Positions 6,190 to 59,766 are shown, numbered from the stretch's first letter. The stretch is DNA of 64,000 bases from Chloroflexota bacterium (GCA_965262895.1 OZ253568.1:3086479-3150478), one strand, 5' to 3'. Notes: generated by a model not told the origin, from the letters alone. Numbers and translations: made by a program.

Positions 6190-6910
6190 ACGTAGCCCGT
6201 ATAGATTCAGATTGGTACGAAAGCATGTCCCGGACTCCGATCCGGGATGAATTCCGGCGCCGGCCGGCGACACCAACCACCGTCACCTGAACAACGACTG
6301 CCCAGGGTCGCAAGAGAAATGTAGCGCTGGGGCTTGTCCCCAGCTGGGGAGGGGCCGCACGCGGCAATGATGCCCGAACTCTACTGCCTACCAGCACCCG
6401 CAATTTTCATACCTCAGTGTGCCGGCGCCAGCCGGCGTGAGCGATTGGTACGAAAATGATGCTACGCAGCCTCGAAAGTGCCTGAATGCCACCGCCCCCG
6501 CACTCGTCAGTCCGGTCCTGTCCCCCGATCGTCAGTCCGGTCCCCCAAACGTCATTCCGGCGGAAGCCGGAATCCAGAGGGGAGGGGTGGCACCAACCAC
6601 ACCCAAACAGTTCCAACGACCAGGTCTCATTTTCATACCCTGGTGTGCCGGCACCAGCCGGCATGAACGATTGCGATGAAAGCATGTCCCGGACTCCGAT
6701 CCGGGATAGGCGCTCCAATCAGCCTCGAGGGCGCCTCCCTACACCCTAAACTTGTCGAACCGTGAATTTACAGCCCATTGTGGAGGGAGAAAATGTAGCG
6801 CTGGGGATTGTCCCCTGCCAAGGACGCTCGGCCAGCCGGAAAGGTCTCTTTCCTAGCCCTTGACGGCAGAGGATAGAAGCCTGCCCCGTACCCCGATACG
6901 GGGGTGAGGG
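6190..6910. repeat. Mosaic cluster of REP-like hairpin units (A, D, B, C, B+A, D, E)
   Basis: Unit A near 6215. Unit D near 6313 and 6793. Unit B near 6397 and 6623. Unit C near 6543. Unit A near 6672. Unit E near 6882. The small ORFs on both strands here are translations of these repeats. Confidence 0.75.
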
Positions 6911-41460: not shown

Positions 41461-42905
41461 CCATCTGCTCCAACTAATTGGTTTTCAGGGTGCTTGCGGT
41501 GCGTCTGGAGCATTTGCGGTTGGCATATCGAGGCTTGCGAGTGAGCGCCAGTCCGGGTGGTGCGGGCAGGATTGACTCGACAGGTATGCGCGGGGCCTGG
41601 ATGCGCGTTCTACGTGAAGGTCGTATGAAGCCCAGTTCGCGACCTCGCTCGACGAAGACCTTCACAGGGTCTCTGCCCTCATAGGCATATTGAGGCGCAT
41701 ACTCCACCAGCAGACCGATGGACACCTCGAAAGGGTCCACCCCGGCCTTGTGGGCTATCTCAAGCCTCATCGACTGGAGGACCTGCGATATTATCAACGT
41801 CGCCCATATCTGTTGCTGAATCACCACCTGCTTGGCAGACCACAGAAGACGCAGCTTGAGGTGTTGCTTGGCCAATGCGAGTGCCATCTCAATGTCCCAC
41901 CTGCGAGCATAGACCTCGGCAATGGATGGAATCGGGAATTTGTGAGGCTCTAGAACGTTGGTGATGTAACGGCGCAGTGTTTTGCCCTGTCTGAAGGTCA
42001 CCAGCCGAACGGCGTGTTTGGTCCGGTCAGCGCGGTGGACTCCCAGCCACACGATGCCATCGAAGACATCGCCGCGCTGATAGAAAGTATGTATCACTTT
42101 GTAGCTGGTCTTTGCTCTCAGCCTGCTCAGCCAATGGCAACCCCTGTCTGTCAGCCAGTCAAACCAGGCGAAACCGAAGTATCCCAAGTCTGCCACCACC
42201 AGTGTTCCCACGGGCAGCTCTGCCGCCAGATCTCGGGCCAATACCTTCTCGTTCTGATTGGGATTCGGCTGGAACTTGACCCTACGCCACTGCTGGCGTC
42301 TCAGGTCGAACACGCCGGCCAGCTTGCCGGCGAGCAGACGAGTGTCCCCTTCAGGGATTTCCCTCAGAGTCGGCAGCGTTCTCGAGATGGCCTCCAGTGT
42401 ACTCTCGTCTATGCACACCACCTCTTCGGCAAACGATGCCAGCCTATCGGAGACCAAACCCTCAAATCGCTCTGCCAACACGCTGCTGATCTGCTCGAAC
42501 AGCCTCTCCAGCGGCTCGATCCCCGCGCTATGTAGCCGATTGTAAACAGCCTGGTCTGTTACCTCAAATCGGGGGAAGAACCACAGCCCCCGTTCCGAGA
42601 TAAGACGCCACAAGGCCAGTTGGCTGCCAAAGCCTCTCAGTACGCACACCAGCAGTCCAGCCCACAGAGCCATCGCCGGCAGAATACGCGGCCTGCCAGG
42701 CCCCTTGACCCTGCGGTCTGGCTCCATCCCCTCCAAACACTGTTGGAGGAACTCCTCTATGTTCCCTAAGGTGTTTGTATCGTCACCGAGTTTCTTGGGC
42801 ATTTCGCGCTGTTCCTCCCGCAGAGTAGTCTTGTCCCTTACTACCGTGCAGGAGTTCTTTCCCAAGGGAAGGATGGTTCTTATAACAATTAGTTGGAGCT
42901 GATGG
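41461..42905 (-). mobile_element. IS4-family insertion sequence, apparently intact (1445 bp)
   Basis: 20-bp terminal inverted repeats CCATCTGCTCCAACTAATTG (41461-41480) and CAATTAGTTGGAGCTGATGG (42886-42905), matching 19/20. 9-bp direct target duplication ACTTGAAGA at 41452-41460 and 42906-42914. Confidence 0.85.
41474..42802 (-). CDS. IS4-family DDE transposase
   Basis: YARRWDIEMALALAK fits the IS4 Y-(2)-R-(3)-E-(6)-K signature; ..VADLGYF.. and ..CIDEST.. are DDE contexts. The ATG at 42802, with a GGGAGGA RBS, is preferred over the TTG at 42865. Confidence 0.9.
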   Translation of the reverse strand: MPKKLGDDTNTLGNIEEFLQQCLEGMEPDRRVKGPGRPRILPAMALWAGLLVCVLRGFGSQLALWRLISERGLWFFPRFEVTDQAVYNRLHSAGIEPLERLFEQISSVLAERFEGLVSDRLASFAEEVVCIDESTLEAISRTLPTLREIPEGDTRLLAGKLAGVFDLRRQQWRRVKFQPNPNQNEKVLARDLAAELPVGTLVVADLGYFGFAWFDWLTDRGCHWLSRLRAKTSYKVIHTFYQRGDVFDGIVWLGVHRADRTKHAVRLVTFRQGKTLRRYITNVLEPHKFPIPSIAEVYARRWDIEMALALAKQHLKLRLLWSAKQVVIQQQIWATLIISQVLQSMRLEIAHKAGVDPFEVSIGLLVEYAPQYAYEGRDPVKVFVERGRELGFIRPSRRTRIQAPRIPVESILPAPPGLALTRKPRYANRKCSRRTASTLKTN

Positions 42906-51893: not shown

Positions 51894-52148
51894 CTATTGC
51901 TCCTGTAGCCGCATGTGGATTCGGTGTCGCAGGTCATAGGGACTCGATTCGTCCTGTGCGACTTGGGCGATCAATCGCCGCAATCTGTCGGAGAATCTGA
52001 AACGTGCGCGGCAGTTCGGGCACGCGTCGAGGTGCCGCCGGACGATTGCCGCTTCCTGGTCGGACAGTTCGCGGTCGAGGTACACGTGTAACTTTTCTTC
52101 TGCTTCCTGGCACTCTATATGATCAGGTTCGCTATGAAAGTTCGTCAC
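51894..52148 (-). CDS. zinc-finger (zf-HC2) anti-sigma factor, RsrA-like
   Basis: 84 aa. C..AEEKLHVYLDRELSDQEAAIVRRHLDACPNCRARF carries the H-x3-C-x2-C motif. Overlaps the sigma gene by 17 nt. Confidence 0.8.
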   Translation of the reverse strand: MTNFHSEPDHIECQEAEEKLHVYLDRELSDQEAAIVRRHLDACPNCRARFRFSDRLRRLIAQVAQDESSPYDLRHRIHMRLQEQ

Positions 52149-52758
52149 GACTACCCGCCTGTACTTGGATTCCGGCCGCCGAACTCGAATATTGCCATAA
52201 TTTCTTCTGCATAAGCCTGCGACCGCGCGAAAGTCGGCTCATCACGGTACCCATTGGAACGTCGGTCACGTCTGCGATTTCTCGGTAGCTAAGACCCTCG
52301 ACGTCGGACAATAGCACCGCAATGCGAAATTGCGCCGGGAGTTCCTCGATTGCGGCTTTGATGTCCAAGTCGACTAGCTCGCGGAACACTTCATCTTCGG
52401 CACTCTTGGGAAGGGGAGTCTCTGACCGGTTCGTCCGATTGTAGAGATAGAACTCCTCCAAATCTTCGATTGAAGACTCGCTTGTGGACCACTTTGCCCT
52501 GTTCATGTTGACGTGGGTATTGTGTAGGATCCGAAACAACCATGCCCGCATATTTGTTCCCAATTGAAATGTATGGGCCGAACGAAAAGCGCGAAGGTAG
52601 GTTTCTTGGACGAGATCTTCGGCGTCCTGCGCGTTGCGCGTCATACGGCGGGCGGTACGATACAGAGAGTCGACATGATTCATAGCCAGCCGTTCGAATT
52701 CGGAACTCTCTGAGGCGGACATTGCTGCTTTGTTGTCGCTAGGGTTTTTCTGGATCAT
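52132..52758 (-). CDS. ECF-type RNA polymerase sigma-70 factor
   Basis: Region 2 (..DAEDLVQETYLRAF..) and region 4 (..LSYREIADVTDVPMGTVMSRLSRGR..). Confidence 0.9.
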   Translation of the reverse strand: MIQKNPSDNKAAMSASESSEFERLAMNHVDSLYRTARRMTRNAQDAEDLVQETYLRAFRSAHTFQLGTNMRAWLFRILHNTHVNMNRAKWSTSESSIEDLEEFYLYNRTNRSETPLPKSAEDEVFRELVDLDIKAAIEELPAQFRIAVLLSDVEGLSYREIADVTDVPMGTVMSRLSRGRRLMQKKLWQYSSSAAGIQVQAGSRDELS

Positions 52759-52994
52759 GGTCTTGCCCTTTGCCTTGCGTCGAGTTGAGTCTACGCTCGC
52801 CTCTCAGGAAACTCAATCCCACATCGTATGAGGCACCACGCGCCGCACGTTCTCGGAAATGCAATTCTCATTTGGAATTGAGGTCCAACTAAGATTGTAC
52901 TATCAGTACTGAACACTCAAGGTCGATACAAGACTCTCCGTCGATTGGACAAAGTCTGTCGATTCTCCGTCCGAGGCGGCCAAACGCTGCCCCT

Positions 52995-53590
52995 ACGCCT
53001 AGCGGCGCGCTTCATTGGGCGCTTTGTTTTGCAAAAAGTACCTCTTAGAGGTGGGTCCCTCCGATCTGATAGAGGCCGGTGGTCTGAGACGATGCCAAAT
53101 CCGGCCGGCTTGCGCTCGTCAAGACAATTTGTTTTGCAAAAAGTACCTCTTAGAGGTGGGCCCCTCCGATCTGATGGAGGCCGGCGGTCTGAGACGATGC
53201 CAAATCCGGCCGGCTTGCGCTCGTCAAGACAATTTGTTTTGCAAAAAGTACCTCTTAGAGGTGGGCCCCTCCGATCTGATAGAGGCCGGTGGTCTGAGAC
53301 GATGCCAAATCCGGCCGGCTTGCGCTCGTCAGGACAATTTGTTTTGCAAAAAGTACCTCTTAGAGGTGGGTCCCTCCGATCTGATGGAGGCCGGTGGTCT
53401 GAGACGATGGCACATCTGGCCGGCTTGCGCTCGTCAAGACAATTTGTTTTGCATTCTTGCCATCGGGAAAGCGGTTCTGCGCAAGTTGATAGAGGCCGGC
53501 GGCCTGAAATGACGTCACCAATTGGCCGGCGTGCGCTTGTCTAGGCGTTTGTTTTGTGTTTTTTCGTATTGGGCCGGCCATCTTCCACGG
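52995..53590. repeat. 105-bp tandem repeat array (4 near-identical units plus about 1.5 degenerate units)
   Basis: The TTTTGCAAAA palindrome recurs with its G at 53031, 53136, 53241, 53346 and 53451 (degenerate), and at 53556 (degenerate), an exact 105-bp period. Units also contain ACCTCTTAGAGGT and CCGGCCGG palindromes. Confidence 0.9.
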
Positions 53591-53712
53591 ACCGATATCA
53601 AGCTGCGCGCCGTAGGTGTGCTGTCGTCAGAGTTGGCACGAATAAGCGAACATACGTACCATCATTATACCGCAGTAAGAGCGATATTGCGCGAACTGTT
53701 GACGGCGGCAGG

Positions 53713-54975
53713 GGTTTTTGATTCTCTAACATCCGTTGTCACCCAAAGGTTGGCGGTGGTCTTGCCTTCCCCCTCCCCTCTGGATTCCTGCCCCCGTATC
53801 GGAGTACGGGGCATGCTTTAGATCGCGGGAATCACCATGGCCTTGCGAAGGCCACAAAAGAGGATGAAAATGGGACGGCGCCGGGTGGTGCAACGCGGGC
53901 GAACTAGCGGCGCGCCCTAGGCGGGGGACAATCCCCCGCGCTACAATCCCCTCTCCCCACCCCTCTGGATTCCGGCCCCGTGTCGGGGTACGGGGCATGC
54001 TTTTGATCGCCGGAATGACGAATCGAGGGTCCGGAGTGACGAAGGGATGCCGCGAATGACCAATGAGAGGCTGCTGGAGCGGTCTATCCCGGATCGGAGT
54101 CCGGGACATGCTTTCATAGCAATCGCTCATGCCGGCTGGCGCCGGCACACCAAGGTATGAAAAGCGGGAGTTGTGGTTTGGTACAGCGAATTGGCACGGT
54201 GGATTCTGCCACGCCCCACCCCAACCCCAGCGGGGGACAAGCCCCCGCGCTACATTTTCTCATTCCGCCATCGGCCATCGGCCATCGGTCTACAATTCGG
54301 CAAGTTTCGCCGGTGGAGAGCCGGCATCGAGGTTGATTGGAGGGCACATCCCGGATCGGAGTCCGGGACATGCTTTCATAGCAATCGCTCATGCCGGCTG
54401 GCGCCGGCACACCAAGGTATGAAAAGCGGGAGTTGTGGTTTGGTACAGCGAATTGGCACGGCGGATTCTGCCACGCCCCACCCCGACTCCAGCGGGGGAC
54501 AAGCCCCCGCGCTACATTTTCTCATTCCGCCATCGGCTATCGGTCTACGATTCGGCACGTTTCGCCCATGGAGAGCCGGCATCGAGGTTGATTGGAGGGC
54601 ACATCCCGGATCGGAGTCCGGGACATGCTTTCGTGCCAATCGCTCATGCCGGCTGGCGCCGGCACACCAAGGTGTGAAAATTGGGTGCATTGGTTGGTGG
54701 GAGAGTTCTAGCGTCATTGCCACAACCCGCACCTCCCCTCTGGATTCCCGCCTTCGCGGGAATGACGAATTGAGGGGCCGGAATGACGAGATCGCGGAAT
54801 GGAGGGGTTCAACGGCGCGCTCGAAAGCGGCGTAGGCGCATTTACGTACGAATGACGACATGCGGTTTGCGGACTATCGAAATGGCCTTGGCGGGTTGAT
54901 TGTTTCGACCAACTGCTTGTCGGCCTAGGAAAATACTCTAGAAGTCCTAAACATTAAAGAATAGAAAAGCCCTGG
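53713..54975. repeat. Composite long repeat A (1263 bp; mosaic of REP units with an internal 262-bp tandem duplication)
   Basis: Collinear with 57480-58415 and in the same orientation. The internal unit starting TCCCGGATCGGAGTCCGGGACATGC recurs at 54087, 54349 and (variant) 54604. Confidence 0.85.
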
Positions 54976-55122
54976 ACGGCGGGCGAGGGTCTTCCGGTTC
55001 TCCACCCAAGTCGGTCACACGAGCCGCAATTCCGGACGGACGTGCGTTGCCAAGTGGTTAGCCATCGGCCCGGAGAATCAGATGGCCGCACAGACAAGAC
55101 GCTACGATTTGTGCTTGGCGTG

Positions 55123-57450
55123 CTAAGTCGGCTCGGTTACCGTTATCGTCCGATCGGCAGAGATGTTGCTTATCGACTGCACAACTCCACTGGGCCAGCG
55201 GATTTCGAGCTCGTCAACTTTGCCAACTTGGCCTAGACCAAAGTGGGCGATCAAACTGTTTTGGGACAAGAAGCTTGTTCCGCTCTGGATCTCCCGAATT
55301 TGACGCTTATTTCCAGCAGTCAGAATAAGCCGAGCTCCGATACCGTCCCGGTTGCTCTGGGTTCCGGCGAGTTGGACGTTTAACCACCGATTGCCGTTGC
55401 CCCTATTTCTAAAAAGCACTGGCCGTTGGTCGTAGTTGGCGACGAGCATGTCCAAGAATCCATCGCCATCTATGTCACCAACGGCTAGTCCGCGGGCGCA
55501 TCCGGTGTGTGCGGTGGAAGTGATCCTCGATACGTCACGGAATGTCCCGTCGCCCATGTTGTGGAAAAGGGCATTGGGTTGGTCCGGAGGGTAGTTTCCG
55601 TCAGCTTTTTGCTCTGGGTATAACCTGCCGGCTACAAAGTAGAGATCGAGTACGCCATCGTTGTCGAAGTCTAGGAAAGCGGTACCCCATCCGCTTGAGT
55701 CCTCGCCGCGAACGACCGCGCGGCCGACGCCAGCTCGATTCGTCATTTCTTCAAATGTCGCGTCGCCTCGGTTGCGATAAAGGACGTTGCTGCCCAAGTT
55801 AGTCGCGAACATGTCCAGACGCCCGTCGCCATCGTAATCGCCCACCGCGACTCCCATTCCGTGAAATGCCGCATCGACGCCGGCGCGCGCGCCGACCTCT
55901 CGAAACGCCCAGCCATCGTCTCTTGGACCAAGGTTGCGAAACAGCGTGTTTGGGCGAATGTGGTGGCCGAAGTCGTTTACTACGTATAAGTCCGGCCTGC
56001 CGTCGTCGTCATAGTCAAATGAGCCTACAGCCAGTCCTGCACCATGGATCTCGCCCGCATCCAGATATTTCGTCACGTCAGTGAACGTGCCGTTGCCCTT
56101 GTTTTGGAACAGACGGTGGCTGCGAGATGCCGCAGTATACGCCCTACGAGTGAAATCTGGCGACATCTCCAACCGGAACTCTGGAACCTCGTCAAGCCAG
56201 TACGTAACGTAGAGGTCCAAATGTCCGTCGCCATTGAAATCAACCCAGGCTGCCGAGGCGGGGTGACCTTCACCGCGGGCAAGCAGTGCGTCGAACGTAA
56301 CGTCCGAGAATCTTCCATCGCCCTTGTTTCGGAACAGCTTTAATCCGCTCAGAGTCGTAAGCAGAATGTCACAGTGACCGTCGTTGTCGTAATCGGCGGC
56401 GGCGACTCCAATAGCAACCCCGTCAGGATCGGCTATCCCCGCCTCGTCTGCGATTTCGGTGAACGTGCGGTCTCCATTGTTGATATAGAGCGCGTTCGGT
56501 CCATTCGCATTGGTCAAGAATATGTCCGGCATGCCATTTCCATTGACGTCAATAAAGGCCGCGCCGGCTTGAATGGTGTCGGCACGCCGGTTAGCCTGAT
56601 GCCTGAAGTTAATTCCTGCCTGCAGCGTAATGTCCTCGTAGATTGGTAGCGTTGCCTCGGGATCGGGTCGACGCAGTGCCGCGGCAACTCTCGCTCCGCC
56701 AATCGCAAAAACGAGTCCCGCCATACCCACGAGCAGAGCCCTGCGAGACAGCCCAGGTGAGCTCTTGACTCCGGTTGAGCTTGCCGGCTGATTGGCGACT
56801 TGGTTCCAACCCGCGATCAGATCGGCCGCTAGGTGTCGATAGAATCCCCCTATCCAGTAGGCGACGATCACCGGCAGATAGGCGGCGGTGTTAAGGGCGA
56901 GATGGAGCCACATTAGATGCAACGCATTACCCAAGATACCTGGCGTTCCGTCTCGCCCGAACTCAACAAACTGCCAGATCTTGAATATGTGCTCGATGGC
57001 GTGATATCCCTGGATAAGGATGCCTACTGTGAGAAGCCACCACGCTGCGGTCCCGCGGGACCAAAGCTGTGGTCGGTGCGCACCACTCAGGGCATAGACT
57101 GAGATAAGGAGAAGAAAAAAGAGAATGTTATAGGCGAATTGAAGTGGCTCTTGGTCGAAATATTGACCGAGCAGGCCTTTCGCATTCTGTATTTCGAGGA
57201 CGAATCGCTGAAATACTTGAACGACCTGCTCGGCCTCATGGAACCCCTGAATTATCAAGAGTCCGAGGAACGCGACGGCAAGTGCTGGGTTGGGTAAGTG
57301 TCCGGTAGCTTCTAGTTGGCTCAGCCGGTTTCTAAGCTCGAGGATCCGTTCACGTATGGCTGCCGACTCACCGCTGACCAATAGCGACCCTTCTGCCTCG
57401 TCCTGTGATTTTACCCTTCGGTAGAACATCGTAAGTATACACGCGGCCAA
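55123..57450 (-). CDS. FG-GAP/VCBS-repeat protein with ASPIC/UnbV C-terminal domain (CRTAC1 family), fused to an N-terminal ~230-aa membrane domain
   Basis: Repeated ..D.DGDG..D.. FG-GAP units; C-terminal ..ELEIRWPSGVVQS.. UnbV_ASPIC motif. The N-terminal hydrophobic domain has HEAEQ/HAIEH motifs. An internal Tat-like motif SRRALLVGMAGLVFAIGGARVAAA lies at about residue 235. Confidence 0.85.
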   Translation of the reverse strand: MAACILTMFYRRVKSQDEAEGSLLVSGESAAIRERILELRNRLSQLEATGHLPNPALAVAFLGLLIIQGFHEAEQVVQVFQRFVLEIQNAKGLLGQYFDQEPLQFAYNILFFLLLISVYALSGAHRPQLWSRGTAAWWLLTVGILIQGYHAIEHIFKIWQFVEFGRDGTPGILGNALHLMWLHLALNTAAYLPVIVAYWIGGFYRHLAADLIAGWNQVANQPASSTGVKSSPGLSRRALLVGMAGLVFAIGGARVAAALRRPDPEATLPIYEDITLQAGINFRHQANRRADTIQAGAAFIDVNGNGMPDIFLTNANGPNALYINNGDRTFTEIADEAGIADPDGVAIGVAAADYDNDGHCDILLTTLSGLKLFRNKGDGRFSDVTFDALLARGEGHPASAAWVDFNGDGHLDLYVTYWLDEVPEFRLEMSPDFTRRAYTAASRSHRLFQNKGNGTFTDVTKYLDAGEIHGAGLAVGSFDYDDDGRPDLYVVNDFGHHIRPNTLFRNLGPRDDGWAFREVGARAGVDAAFHGMGVAVGDYDGDGRLDMFATNLGSNVLYRNRGDATFEEMTNRAGVGRAVVRGEDSSGWGTAFLDFDNDGVLDLYFVAGRLYPEQKADGNYPPDQPNALFHNMGDGTFRDVSRITSTAHTGCARGLAVGDIDGDGFLDMLVANYDQRPVLFRNRGNGNRWLNVQLAGTQSNRDGIGARLILTAGNKRQIREIQSGTSFLSQNSLIAHFGLGQVGKVDELEIRWPSGVVQSISNISADRTITVTEPT

Positions 57451-57479
57451 TCGAATGGCTTGGGAGAGTGCACACCAGT

Positions 57480-58415
57480 GGTTTTTGATTCTCTAGCATC
57501 CGTTATCACCCAAAGGTTGGCGGTGGTCTTGCCTTCCCCCTCCCCTCTCGATTCCGGCCCCGTATCGGGGTACGGGGCATGCTTTTGATCGCCGGAATCA
57601 CCATGGACCTGAGAGGTCCGCATAAGAGGATGAAAATGGGGCGACGGGTGAGTTTTTTCCATCGTCTGGTGACCTTACCCCTCCCCACCCCTTCTGGATT
57701 CCGGCCTTCGCCGGAATGACGATTGGGGGGCCGGATTGACGAGGGGATGCCGCGAATGACCAATGAGAGGCTACTGGAGCGGTCTATCCCGGATCCTAGT
57801 CCAGGACATGCTTTCATAGCAATCGCTCATCCCGGCTGGCGCCGGCACACCAAGGTATGAAAAGCGGGAGTTGTGGTTTGGTACAGCGAATGAGCACGGC
57901 GGATTGTGCCACGCCCCACCCCGACCCCAGCGGGGGACAAGCCCCCGCGCTACATTTTCTCATTCCGCCATCGACCATCGGTCTACAATTCGGCACGTTT
58001 CGCCGGTGGAGAGCCGGCATCGAGGTTGATTGGAGGGCACATCCCGGATCGTAGTCCGGGACATGCTCTCATAGCAATCGCTCATGCCGGCTGGTGCCGG
58101 CACGCCAAGGTGTGAAAATCGGGTGCATTGGTTGGTGGGAGAGTTCTAGCGTGATTGCCACAACCCGCACCTCCCCTCTGGATTCCCGCCTTCGCGGGAA
58201 TGACGAAAGGGGGGGTGCGGGAATGACGAGATCGCGGAATGGAGGGGTTCGGCGGCGCGCTCGAAAGCGGCGTGGGCGCATTTTCGTACGAATGACGACA
58301 TGCGGTTTGCGGACTATCGAAATGGGCTTTGTAGGTTGACTTTTTCGACCAACTGCTTGTCGGCCTAGGAAAATACTCTAGAAGTCCTAAACATCAAAGA
58401 ATAGAAAAGCCCTGG
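57480..58415. repeat. Composite long repeat B (936 bp), direct repeat of 53713-54975
   Basis: Same unit order and orientation as repeat A, without the 262-bp duplication. The last ~200 bp are near-identical, ending ...CGACCAACTGCTTGTCGGCCTAGGAAAATACTCTAGAAGTCCTAAACAT.AAAGAATAGAAAAGCCCTGG. Confidence 0.85.
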
Positions 58416-58462
58416 GGTGCACACAGGGTCCGCGGACGGATATCCGGGACGCGGGATGGGAG

Positions 58463-59110
58463 CTAGTTTGGGTTAGCCTGCTGGGAAGTGGATGGGTCAA
58501 CCGAGTTACGAGCTCGCTCTCTCCGTCTGATCACTCGCGCCGAGACGTTTATCAAAAGAAAGCCAGCAACAAATAAGACTGCGAAGAGTGTGACCGCCAA
58601 CTCGAAATATTGCGAAAGGTAGTACTGTATAGTCTCGCCGAACGCGAATATCAATCCGCCCACCAGGAAAAACCTGGCTCCACGGCCGATCGCTGAGGCG
58701 ATCACGAAGCGTCTAAAATCCAATTCGAAGACACCGGCGCTTATGGAAAACACTTTATACGGGATGGGTGTAAATGCCGCGATCAGGATCGCCCACACGT
58801 CGTAGCGCTGATAAAGTCTTTGGACGAGCATAATCTTTTCTTCGCCGAATAGCTTGATCGCTATCGGCCGGCCTCCTCTCGTGCCCATCTGGTGCCCAAG
58901 CATACCGCCCAGGACCGACCCAATCATACATACGAGTGCGAACACCAAGGCCGTCGGTGGATTTGCGATGCTCAGAGCGATAAGCAAAATATCCGGAGGA
59001 ACCGGAAAGAAACTAGATTCTGCGAATGATATGACGAAGAGTGCGGCCGGACCGTATGGTGATTCCGCCCACGCGACTACCCACTCCACGAGATGTCGAA
59101 GAATTTCCAC
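58463..59110 (-). CDS. DedA/YqaA-family (VTT domain) membrane protein
   Basis: ..FVISFAESSFFPVPPDILLIAL.. is typical of the YqaA/DedA family. Confidence 0.8.
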   Translation of the reverse strand: MEILRHLVEWVVAWAESPYGPAALFVISFAESSFFPVPPDILLIALSIANPPTALVFALVCMIGSVLGGMLGHQMGTRGGRPIAIKLFGEEKIMLVQRLYQRYDVWAILIAAFTPIPYKVFSISAGVFELDFRRFVIASAIGRGARFFLVGGLIFAFGETIQYYLSQYFELAVTLFAVLFVAGFLLINVSARVIRRRERARNSVDPSTSQQANPN

Positions 59111-59307
59111 TCAGAAATCCCTCCTACGGTTCTAGTTGTATTCCGCCTCGCACGCCGACGTGACGTGGAGAGCCAATGCCGGAACTACTCAATCCGGCCA
59201 CTAAATCTTGCGCATGAAGCCCACGGACTCAGCTATTCTCGAAGGTCGTCTGCCGCAAGACCTTGGAACGGTTTGGACAGCTAGGAAAGTCAGTATCCTA
59301 AAATGCG

Positions 59308-59766
59308 CTACTTCCAGCCGCGCAGGACTTTCTCGGTTTCCTCTTTGTGGGTGGTTTCATCCTTGATAAAGTCTTCAAGGACCAGTCTCAGAGCGTGCTC
59401 GCCAAGCTGTCCGGCGAATTCTGCATGCTCGACGTACCGATTGATGGCGTCTTCTTCAGCCGAAAGTACATTATTTAGCATTTCTACTGGCTCGGTGGCT
59501 TCGGGAACAGCTTTTGGCTCGGTTATCGGAACGCCACCTAGCGCCGCCACCTTTTGCGCCAAGTACTGGGAATGGCTCAACTCACTGCTAACTTCGCTGG
59601 AGAAGAACTCCGAGAGCCAGGACCTATGAGGGCCCGTTACTACAGATGAATACTGGATGTACATGATGACGGCCTGATACTCGTACGCCAAGTCCTCGTT
59701 GATGGCGCTGATCAGCCGGTCCTTGGCGTTGCTGGTTATTTCGGTGACAGAAGATACGGTAGCCAT
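59308..59766 (-). CDS. ferritin-like domain protein
   Basis: 152 aa. E..A...Y and E..H..E motifs (..NEDLAYEYQAV.., ..EEDAINRY.., ..DETTHKEE..) form a di-iron four-helix bundle pattern. Confidence 0.75.
   Translation of the reverse strand: MATVSSVTEITSNAKDRLISAINEDLAYEYQAVIMYIQYSSVVTGPHRSWLSEFFSSEVSSELSHSQYLAQKVAALGGVPITEPKAVPEATEPVEMLNNVLSAEEDAINRYVEHAEFAGQLGEHALRLVLEDFIKDETTHKEETEKVLRGWK

What the first reader, a model, noticed from the sequence alone, without database searches (positions are those of the whole stretch)
53713..58415. ~1-kb composite direct repeats bracket the CRTAC1-like gene, and the same block also sits upstream of the ECF sigma operon
Repeat A (53713-54975) and repeat B (57480-58415) are collinear and in the same orientation, 3767 bp apart. 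They enclose the FG-GAP/UnbV gene closely: 148 bp from its stop and 30 bp from its start. Read on the minus (coding) strand, the order is B - CRTAC1-like gene - A - 105-bp array - sigma/anti-sigma. The same ~1-kb hairpin mosaic, including a near-identical AT-richer ~80-bp terminal segment (..CGACCAACTGCTTGTCGGCCTAGGAAAATACTCTAGAAGTCCTAAACAT..), therefore lies upstream of both transcription units. Repeat A also carries a 262-bp internal tandem duplication. Such direct repeats allow RecA-mediated excision or tandem amplification of the enclosed gene, and might provide shared regulation.
Basis: seen in the sequence. Interest (0 to 1): 0.6.

Follow-up and report, generated by a model that had tools for sequence, protein, structure and literature searches.

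The report
Two modular MITE copies flank a gene
The two ~1-kb direct repeats around the FG-GAP/ASPIC gene are separate insertions of one small non-coding transposon (a MITE) stuffed with hairpin repeats that occur all over this sponge-associated Chloroflexota genome, so the pattern is real but is ordinary mobile-DNA litter rather than a device built around this gene.

Summary
Repeat A (53709-54974, 1266 bp) and repeat B (57476-58414/16, ~940 bp) are collinear direct repeats, 90-94% identical, and A carries an extra 262-bp tandem unit. They are not specific to this locus. Each has imperfect 22-bp terminal inverted repeats (CAGGGGTTTTTGATTCTCTAAC / ..AAAGAATAGAAAAGCCCTG) and its own target-site duplication (A: GACGGCGG; B: GTGCACAC).

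The same shell occurs about 14 times in the genome. It ranges from an 'empty' 215-bp form to 1.27 kb, always with different 8-10-bp duplications. Precise empty sites exist in a sister species, and for B itself in related natural populations. A more distant congener has the same gene order with neither A nor B.

The interior is a mosaic of REP/BIME-like hairpin modules found at about 250 places (1.5% of the genome). These include GTAG-tagged REPs that also flank the genome's single RAYT gene.

I found no autonomous transposase; only decayed ISAs1-like remnants remain. I found no support for a shared promoter in the terminal segment. I also found no sign of deletion or amplification of the gene, though only assembled contigs were available to test that. 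Closest analogues are modular MITEs such as pneumococcal BOX elements. Interest is low to moderate.

The parts
53709..54974 (+). MITE copy A (1266 bp), 'loaded' form: left end, hairpin-module mosaic, right end
   Evidence: TIRs and 8-bp TSD. Collinear with B. It is the largest of 251 module clusters in the genome. The orthologous copy in the sister species is 1635 bp with the same TSD. The site is empty in G001.
53701..53708 (.). Target-site duplication of A, left copy (GACGGCGG)
   Evidence: Repeated at 54975-54982.
54975..54982 (.). Target-site duplication of A, right copy (GACGGCGG)
53709..53730 (+). Left terminal inverted repeat of A (CAGGGGTTTTTGATTCTCTAAC)
   Evidence: 17 of 22 positions match the reverse complement of 54953-54974.
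54953..54974 (+). Right terminal inverted repeat of A (ATTAAAGAATAGAAAAGCCCTG)
54086..54680 (+). Tandem 262/255-bp module units in A (54086-54347, 54348-54602, partial 54603-54680). B has one full unit plus a partial one (57786-58040, 58041-58123).
   Evidence: The units are 94.7% identical. Unit number differs in the sister species.
53921..53945 (-). GTAG-tagged REP hairpin (GTAGCGCGGGGG-loop-CCCCCGC on the minus strand). Further copies lie at 54230-54254, 54492-54516 and 57930-57954.
   Evidence: family D11. The same REP flanks the single RAYT gene at genome 2239014-2239523. About 190 copies genome-wide.
55123..57450 (-). FG-GAP / UnbV_ASPIC (CRTAC1-like) gene, 775 codons. It is resident, not cargo.
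   Evidence: Pfam FG-GAP_3 5.7e-59 and UnbV_ASPIC 6e-22. The ortholog sits at the same locus in G002 (96% aa) and in G001 without any MITE.
57476..58416 (+). MITE copy B (939-941 bp), 'loaded' form
   Evidence: TIRs and TSD. A precise empty-site allele (joint 57467->58417 with 8 shared letters) is seen in runs X6, X7 and probably X15; the site is filled in X9 and X12. The ortholog in G002 is 819 bp.
57468..57475 (.). Target-site duplication of B, left copy (GTGCACAC)
   Evidence: Repeated at 58417-58424. It equals the 8 letters shared at the empty-site joint.
58417..58424 (.). Target-site duplication of B, right copy (GTGCACAC)
52918..53547 (+). 105-bp tandem array between A and the ECF sigma gene. 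It is context, not part of the MITE.
   Evidence: D1. The unit occurs nowhere else in the genome. The array is shorter in G002 and absent in G001.
51894..52758 (-). ECF sigma factor (52132-52758) and zf-HC2 anti-sigma (51894-52148)
   Evidence: Pfam Sigma70_r2/r4_2 and zf-HC2.
58463..59766 (-). VTT/DedA-type membrane protein gene (58463-59110) and ferritin/Dps-like gene (59308-59766), upstream of B on the coding strand
   Evidence: Pfam VTT_dom and Ferritin. In G001 the VTT stop lies only 45 bp from the FG-GAP gene start.

Best explanation
A and B are two copies of a non-autonomous, non-coding transposon: a modular MITE confined to this genus of sponge-associated Chloroflexota.

The basic element is 215 bp. 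It has a 61-bp left end, one GGATTCC-GCC-TTC-GC-GGAATGAC hairpin and a 117-bp AT-richer right end. It is bounded by imperfect 22-bp inverted repeats that begin CAGGG.

Shown:
- A transposase supplied in trans pasted copies into intergenic DNA and made 8-10-bp target duplications.
- A and B went separately into the two short spacers on either side of a gene that was already there.
- The interior of the element is a mosaic of REP/BIME-like hairpin modules. These include GTAG-tagged REPs cognate to the genome's single RAYT, and 255-262-bp composite units.
- The ~0.9-kb 'loaded' form has itself been copied to several sites.
- After insertion, the interior changes length by gain and loss of whole modules.

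Inferred:
- The transposase was of the ISAs1 family, judged from the CAGGG ends and the duplication length.
- The modules entered or multiplied through RAYT activity and through slippage or recombination.
- The copies are now co-transcribed passengers in the spacers. Their only likely effects are generic ones: hairpins in the mRNA, separation of the FG-GAP gene from its upstream operon partners, and a substrate for homologous recombination.
For: - TIRs and a different TSD at every one of 12 complete copies, including A and B.
- The element is 215-216 bp (two copies) and 245 bp (one copy) in its shortest forms, and 318-1267 bp in nine others. Every complete copy shares the right end and the terminal inverted repeats; three (e618k, e775k, e3444k) carry a variant left subterminal segment.
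- A precise empty site in this genome (3509573-3509580) where the sister species has a copy with TSD CGCCGATT.
- A precise empty allele of B in contigs of related populations, with 8 shared letters at the joint.
- Both sites are empty in congener G001, which has the same gene order and spacers of 190 bp and 45 bp.
- The family is found only in the three genomes of the genus among 41 relatives. The 21-mer of its left end is found in only one other GTDB species, OZ244845.1.
- Modules like those in A and B lie at 251 clusters, 56.7 kb in total. Each hairpin type has 98-190 copies.
- One RAYT (NF047646, 109.9 bits against a cut-off of 80) is flanked by the same GTAG REP.
- Long copies with different TSDs share collinear interiors at 81-85% over about 890 nt.
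- Orthologous copies differ in length between species: A 1266 against 1635 bp, B 940 against 819 bp.
- ORFs inside A and B have no Pfam domain, and there is no Rfam match.
- An ISAs1 member with CAGGG ends and a 10-bp duplication: ISArsp11 (PMC6305408).
Against: - No autonomous element with matching ends was found. The ISAs1 model hits only decayed fragments. None of the three other DDE_Tnp_1 loci of this genome that I examined, nor the IS4 element in the window (a second copy of which was not examined separately), has similar inverted repeats. A CAGGG inverted-repeat scan found no transposase. The family assignment of the transposase is therefore inference.
- How modules get into the shell was not observed. 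Most module types (H1, H2a, H2b, H4) have no GTAG tag, so RAYT involvement for them is a guess.
- B is present in the sister species (96.5% flank identity) but absent in some populations of similar divergence (~97%). That needs precise loss, allele exchange, or a branching order I could not resolve.
Confidence: 0.9

Rival explanations
1. The two blocks are a selected regulatory module, such as a shared promoter, operator or RNA element, placed upstream of both the FG-GAP gene and the ECF sigma operon.
For: A copy lies upstream of each unit. Metatranscriptome contigs run from the FG-GAP gene 72 nt into B and from the VTT/Dps genes 72 nt into the other end of B, so the element is probably transcribed. 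Terminator-like hairpins are enriched in the region, 16 against 6.0 expected.
Against: There is no sigma-70-like promoter match inside either block and no Rfam family. The conserved terminal segment is at the distal end of each copy. Among 12 copies that end faces gene stops six times and gene starts six times. B is missing in natural alleles, and both blocks are missing in G001. RNA contigs have no direction and may include DNA.
Confidence: 0.08
2. A and B act as recombination substrates that give a standing population of deletion or tandem-amplification variants of the FG-GAP gene. This would be RecA-mediated copy-number or phase variation.
For: They are direct repeats with 630 nt at 94% identity, 3767 bp apart. 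Module number inside the elements clearly changes over time, so these sequences are recombination- or slippage-prone.
Against: The gene is retained between both copies in the sister species. Contig depth in the same-strain run X1 is flat across left flank, gene and right flank, 5.86/5.70/5.83. No joint specific to an A/B hybrid could be recognised, but contigs cannot show one.
Confidence: 0.1
3. A and B form a composite transposon, or MITE-flanked mobilisation unit, that brought the FG-GAP gene to this place.
For: Two copies of one MITE in the same orientation flank a single gene. MITE pairs around class 1 integrons are documented in Acinetobacter (PMC10969869).
Against: Each copy has its own matching duplication (A: GACGGCGG on both sides; B: GTGCACAC on both sides), and the outer flanks do not match each other. 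The gene sits at the same place between the sigma operon and the VTT gene in G001, which has no MITE there. Alleles with A but without B exist.
Confidence: 0.02
4. The second copy is an assembly artefact or a recent local segmental duplication of an intergenic region.
For: High identity between A and B, and a repeat-rich genome that is hard to assemble.
Against: Contigs cross the unique junctions. The sister-species complete genome has the same two sites with the same duplications. A and B differ at 6% of positions and in module content.
Confidence: 0.01

Closest known systems
Modular MITEs of the BOX type in Streptococcus pneumoniae (boxA - boxB(n) - boxC; Croucher et al. 2011, PMC3049150)
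   Same: Conserved, unlike left and right end modules with terminal inverted repeats and target duplications. A variable number of internal modules. A wide size range (BOX 67-637 bp; here 215-1267 bp, and up to 1796 bp in the sister species). Length differs between strains at the same site. The elements are intergenic and co-transcribed. Long stop-free frames occur inside large copies (for BOX).
   Different: There is no sequence relationship, and the phylum is different (Chloroflexota). The interior is not one repeated module. It is a mosaic of several hairpin families that also live outside the shell at about 250 places, some of them GTAG REPs tied to a RAYT. The element is GC-rich rather than AT-rich.
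REP / BIME / REPIN elements with their RAYT transposase (Nunvar et al. 2010, PMC2817692; Di Nocera et al. 2013, PMC3733652)
   Same: GTAG-tagged GC-rich palindromes in more than 100 copies, clustered in mosaics. A single RAYT gene is flanked by the same REPs.
   Different: A and B as wholes are bounded by CAGGG inverted repeats and 8-10-bp target duplications, which single-strand HUH transposition does not make. Most modules in the mosaic lack the GTAG tag. To my knowledge, REP systems are described mainly in Proteobacteria.
ISAs1-family insertion sequences as the likely source of the shell (for example ISArsp11: IR CAGGGCTGATGC.., 10-bp duplication; PMC6305408)
   Same: Ends begin CAGGG and target duplications are 8-10 bp. 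Decayed ISAs1-like transposase fragments exist in the genus.
   Different: No intact ISAs1 transposase and no element with matching ends was found. The link rests on end sequence and duplication length only.
MITE pairs flanking cargo (Acinetobacter MITEs around class 1 integrons; review PMC10969869)
   Same: Two copies of one MITE bracket a gene.
   Different: Here each copy has its own duplication and the gene is ancestral at the locus, so the pair did not move as a unit.

Membership tests
MITE (miniature inverted-repeat transposable element) | Terminal inverted repeats | tested here: met
   22-bp imperfect TIRs, 17-18 of 22 matching, at all complete copies.
MITE (miniature inverted-repeat transposable element) | Target-site duplication that differs from copy to copy | tested here: met
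   8-10-bp duplications, different at each of 12 copies.
MITE (miniature inverted-repeat transposable element) | Small, with no transposase gene | tested here: met
   The basic form is 215 bp. ORFs in A and B have no Pfam domain. The long copies examined in G002 are 99-100% module sequence. A and B, at 0.94-1.27 kb, are large for a MITE.
MITE (miniature inverted-repeat transposable element) | Multiple dispersed copies and presence/absence polymorphism with precise empty sites | tested here: met
   12-14 ends in the genome. Empty sites are shown.
MITE (miniature inverted-repeat transposable element) | A cognate autonomous IS with the same ends | tested here: not met
   None in the three genomes of the genus, and none in JGI metagenome contigs by two exact-word scans. 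Many accepted MITE families also lack a known partner.
ISAs1-derived element | CAGGG termini and 8-10-bp duplication | tested here: met
   The comparison is ISArsp11 in PMC6305408.
ISAs1-derived element | Mobilised by an ISAs1 DDE transposase | tested here: inconclusive
   Only fragments below the cut-off were found (66, 37 and 32 bits against a cut-off of 70), with stop codons in two.
REP/RAYT system (the modules inside A and B) | GTAG-tagged palindrome in high copy | tested here: met
   GTAGCGCGGGGGCTTGTCCCCCGC has 190 matches at up to 3 mismatches: three in A and one in B.
REP/RAYT system (the modules inside A and B) | RAYT gene flanked by its REPs | tested here: met
   NF047646 scores 109.9 bits. 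REPs lie on both sides at genome 2238806, 2238974, 2239556 and 2239715.
REP/RAYT system (the modules inside A and B) | RAYT cleaves and moves these REPs | not testable with these tools
   Needs biochemistry or genetics.
Composite transposon / MITE-flanked mobilisation unit | One target duplication at the outer ends of the pair, and cargo absent from the ancestral locus | tested here: not met
   The outer flanks differ and each copy has its own duplication. The gene is present in G001 without MITEs.

The most novel reading that the evidence does not exclude
A cut-and-paste (DDE-type) MITE shell serves as a vehicle for REP/BIME-type hairpin arrays. The central hairpin of the 215-bp shell is a landing or nucleation site where RAYT-type and other hairpin modules accumulate. 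The loaded shell is then spread by the DDE transposase. Two unrelated mobilisation systems would thus be nested in one element, and REP mosaics would gain a second route of dispersal.
Probability: 0.3. Interest if true: 0.5.

Novelty: new member of a known kind. Interest (0 to 1): 0.3.

Why it matters
For annotation, the result turns two puzzling 1-kb 'orphan' intergenic blocks, and about 250 related clusters (1.5% of the genome), into a defined repeat family with clear boundaries. This prevents false gene calls inside them; stop-free frames of up to 432 codons occur.

It documents MITE activity and a REP/RAYT system in an uncultured sponge-associated Chloroflexota genus. Such elements have hardly been described in this group.

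It gives ready-made insertion polymorphisms (B present or absent; module number at A and B) for strain typing in sponge metagenomes.

It does not point to new biology of the FG-GAP gene or the ECF sigma operon.

Tried and rejected
- Rfam scan of 52000-59500 at E<=1 found nothing.
- The sigma-70 promoter scan found no site inside A or B.
- Search for the autonomous partner failed on every route. The ISAs1 model found only fragments. ORFs next to lone TIR-like hits were not transposases, apart from an unrelated IS30-like gene 1.8 kb away. A genome-wide CAGGG inverted-repeat scan found no transposase. DDE_Tnp_1 loci and the IS4 element in the window (41461-42905) have unrelated ends. Two exact-word scans of JGI metagenome contigs gave 0 hits.
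- The test for deletion or amplification was limited, because only Logan contigs were served. These break inside the repeats and cannot show an A/B hybrid. The many 'joints' with short sides or extra letters are other genomic copies of the modules, not rearrangements of this locus.
- My first regex for the hairpin geometry was wrong and gave noise. It was replaced.
- The composite-transposon and segmental-duplication readings were rejected on the target duplications and on the G001 locus.


Full report
**1. Observation**

Collinear direct repeats lie at 53709-53794/57476-57561 (94%, spacing 3767), 54348-54647/57786-58085 (94%) and 54774-54975/58214-58415 (94%). BLAST of A against B gives 93.8% over the last 630 nt and 90.4% over the first 166 nt.

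A carries an extra tandem unit. Segments 54086-54347 and 54348-54602 are 94.7% identical, whereas B has one full unit.

The enclosed ORF 55123-57450 (minus strand, 775 codons) is an FG-GAP/UnbV_ASPIC protein. Downstream on the coding strand lie an ECF sigma gene (52132-52758) and a zf-HC2 anti-sigma gene (51894-52148). Upstream lie a VTT/DedA-type gene (58463-59110) and a ferritin/Dps-like gene (59308-59766).

**2. The block is not local**

The window is G000:C1:3086479-3150478 of a 3.71-Mb single-contig genome. B matches 106 places in it, giving 636 BLAST HSPs.

The coverage profile shows a modular make-up. The first 61 nt have 9-12 copies and the last 117 nt have 14. Internal segments, such as B positions 62-126, 311-388 and 566-643, have 100-177 matches with sharp shared boundaries.

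Sequence like A or B covers 56.7 kb, or 1.5% of the genome, in 251 clusters. A is the largest cluster.

**3. A and B are MITE copies**

The left-end and right-end segments pair up, in the same relative orientation, at nine sites by BLAST of the end segments. Three more sites (e618k, e775k, e3444k) were completed from the TIR scan. The twelve pairs lie 215 to 1267 bp apart.

Every pair is bounded by imperfect inverted repeats: CAGGGGTTTTTGATTCTCTAAC on the left and ..TTAAAGAAT(T/A)GAAAA(C/G)CCCTG on the right, matching at 17-18 of 22 positions. Every pair is also flanked by a direct duplication of 8-10 bp that differs from site to site:
- CCGGCGCGA
- AGAGAGAGA
- GGGTCTTGG
- TCTTGACCTG
- GTTGCATGAA
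- CGACGTGCT
- CTTTAACATA
- for A, GACGGCGG (53701-53708 and 54975-54982)
- for B, GTGCACAC (57468-57475 and 58417-58424)

Two copies of 215-216 bp (genome 318491-318705 and 1835380-1835594) consist only of the left end, one hairpin (GGATTCCTGCC-TTC-GCAGGAATGAC) and the right end. A 245-bp copy has a 31-nt hairpin inserted in that loop. The longer copies have progressively more modules at the same place.

ORFs inside A and B hit no Pfam family. There is no Rfam match.

**4. Proof of insertion**

- *Sister species.* In G002 (OZ244845.1, 'MAG: Chloroflexota bacterium'; flanks ~96.5% identical) a 215-bp copy with duplication CGCCGATT sits where G000 has the uninterrupted sequence ..gccgccgattgcataattgacc... 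A second G002 copy likewise has no counterpart in G000, whose flanks lie about 15 bp apart there.
- *Site B.* Contigs of related populations (~97-98% identical) in runs X6 and X7 join 57467 directly to 58417 with 8 shared letters. That is the exact empty site. In X15 a contig stops at 57467 with 55 further letters unplaced, as expected for the same allele. X9 and X12 have contigs running into both ends of B.
- *Congener G001.* In G001 (~77% identical) the gene order is conserved: sigma/anti-sigma, FG-GAP gene, VTT, Dps. The two spacers are only 190 bp and 45 bp, with no A, no B and no 105-bp array.
- *G002 at this locus.* Both copies sit at the same sites with the same duplications. A is 1635 bp and B is 819 bp there.

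From this I conclude three things. The gene is ancestral at the locus. A and B inserted separately after the split from G001. Their interiors have since gained and lost whole modules.

**5. The interior**

Four hairpin families dominate:
- H1: GGATTCC(S)GCC-TTC-GC(S)GGAATGAC
- H2a: TCCCGGA-TCGGAG-TCCGGGA followed by CATGCTTT
- H2b: CCCCGTA-TCGGGG-TACGGGG followed by CATGCTTT
- H3: GTAGCGCGGGGG-CTTGT-CCCCCGC
- a fifth, less prominent family, H4: CATGCCGGCTGGCGCCGGCA

Each has 98-190 copies. H2a and H2b share loop and tail but have compensating stems. H2b lies inside the loop of H1 in 72 of 98 cases, and H2a never does.

H3 is a classic GTAG-tagged REP (features as defined in PMC3733652). The genome's only Y1-transposase gene (genome 2239014-2239523, outside the window) is a RAYT: NF047646 scores 109.9 bits against a cut-off of 80. 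H3 copies flank it on both sides, as described for RAYTs (PMC2817692). A holds three H3 copies and B holds one.

**6. The loaded form has moved**

A, B and the copies at 775694-776686, 3444700-3445684 and 2840380-2841479 have different target duplications. They nevertheless share collinear interiors, at 81-85% identity in single alignments of about 890 nt for two of them. The mosaic was therefore already inside the shell when these copies were made.

In G002, copies range from 215 to 1796 bp. The three long copies I examined (1270-1796 bp) are 99-100% module sequence.

**7. Who moved it**

Staggered 8-10-bp duplications point to a DDE transposase. Ends beginning CAGGG with duplications of that length fit the ISAs1 family; for example, ISArsp11 has IR CAGGGCTGATGC.. 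and a 10-bp duplication (PMC6305408).

The ISAs1 model finds only decayed fragments in the genus. No other transposase locus has similar ends. Metagenome scans were empty. The partner is thus unknown, and the family may now be immobile. This step is inference.

**8.

*Regulation.*
- No sigma-70-like site falls in either block.
- The conserved AT-richer end lies next to the stop of the preceding gene, far from the downstream start.
- Across 12 copies that end faces stops and starts about equally often.
- Alleles without B, and a congener without either block, exist.

Metatranscriptome contigs cross from the FG-GAP gene 72 nt into B (57035-57547). Others cross from the VTT/Dps genes 72 nt into the other end of B (58344-59759). 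This fits passive co-transcription through B, but the contigs have no direction and may contain DNA.

*Recombination.* Direct repeats of 94% identity could recombine, but I saw no sign of it. The gene is kept in G002. Depth in the same-strain run X1 is 5.86/5.70/5.83 for left flank, gene and right flank. Contigs cannot reveal a hybrid A/B copy, so this remains open.

**9. Comparison and verdict**

The element meets the MITE criteria except for a known autonomous partner. Its end-module / variable-interior / end-module design, and its length variation between strains, most resemble pneumococcal BOX elements (PMC3049150). Its interior resembles BIMEs with a RAYT.

It is not a composite transposon, because each copy has its own duplication and the gene is ancestral. 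The finding is a real, well-defined but ordinary class of mobile DNA.

The mildly unusual feature is that a DDE-type shell carries REP-type mosaics. Earlier notes of this scan on the 105-bp array and on the IS4 element were consulted. I checked that the array unit is unique to this locus and that the IS4 ends are unrelated to the MITE ends.

Noticed in passing
window 52918-53547: The 105-bp tandem array between A and the ECF sigma gene has no other copy of its unit in the genome. It is about two units shorter in the sister species and absent in congener G001, so it arose and varies locally, next to the MITE insertion.
   Followed up: partly
L036 8435-10751 (G001:C24): The ortholog of the FG-GAP/ASPIC gene in congener G001 is broken into several frames (longest pieces 292, 206 and 158 codons, with stop codons in the protein match). 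It may be a pseudogene there, or the assembly may have errors.
   Followed up: partly
window 53730 -> 54953 (runs X6, X7): A contig from related populations appears to join the first 22 nt of A to its last 22 nt, which would leave only a ~45-bp TIR-TIR remnant at site A (5-bp microhomology AACAT). The matching side is only 22 nt, so this is tentative.
   Followed up: partly
genome 2239014-2239523 (outside the window; locus L011): A single REP-associated tyrosine transposase gene is flanked by GTAG-tagged REPs. To my knowledge, a REP/RAYT system in Chloroflexota is rarely if ever described.
   Followed up: partly
genome-wide; in the window e.g. 54088-54115 and 53793-53820: Two hairpin subfamilies share loop (TCGGAG/TCGGGG) and 3' tail (CATGCTTT) but have fully compensating 7-bp stems (TCCCGGA/TCCGGGA against CCCCGTA/TACGGGG). 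One is nested in the loop of the GGAATGAC hairpin in 72 of 98 copies, and the other never is.
   Followed up: partly
window 6210-6815: Another 606-bp cluster of the same hairpin modules lies elsewhere in this window.
   Followed up: no
genome 869709-870035 (L024); G002 2542166-2542357 (L023) and 3202837-3203172 (L025): Decayed ISAs1-like transposase fragments are the only trace of a possible parent of the MITE family.
   Followed up: partly
L035 1558-3353 and L033 4219-5596 (G002): Large loaded MITE copies contain stop-free frames of 402-432 codons made purely of repeat modules. Gene finders are likely to call false proteins there.
   Followed up: no
G001, G002: The FG-GAP/UnbV_ASPIC protein belongs to a paralog family with about 8 matching places in G002 and about 13 in G001 (some of the latter are fragments), at roughly 60-66% identity.
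   Followed up: no
window 54975 -> 56536 (runs X6, X7): A contig joint on opposite strands links the right edge of A to the middle of the FG-GAP gene in related populations. This may be a rearranged or paralogous copy.
   Followed up: no
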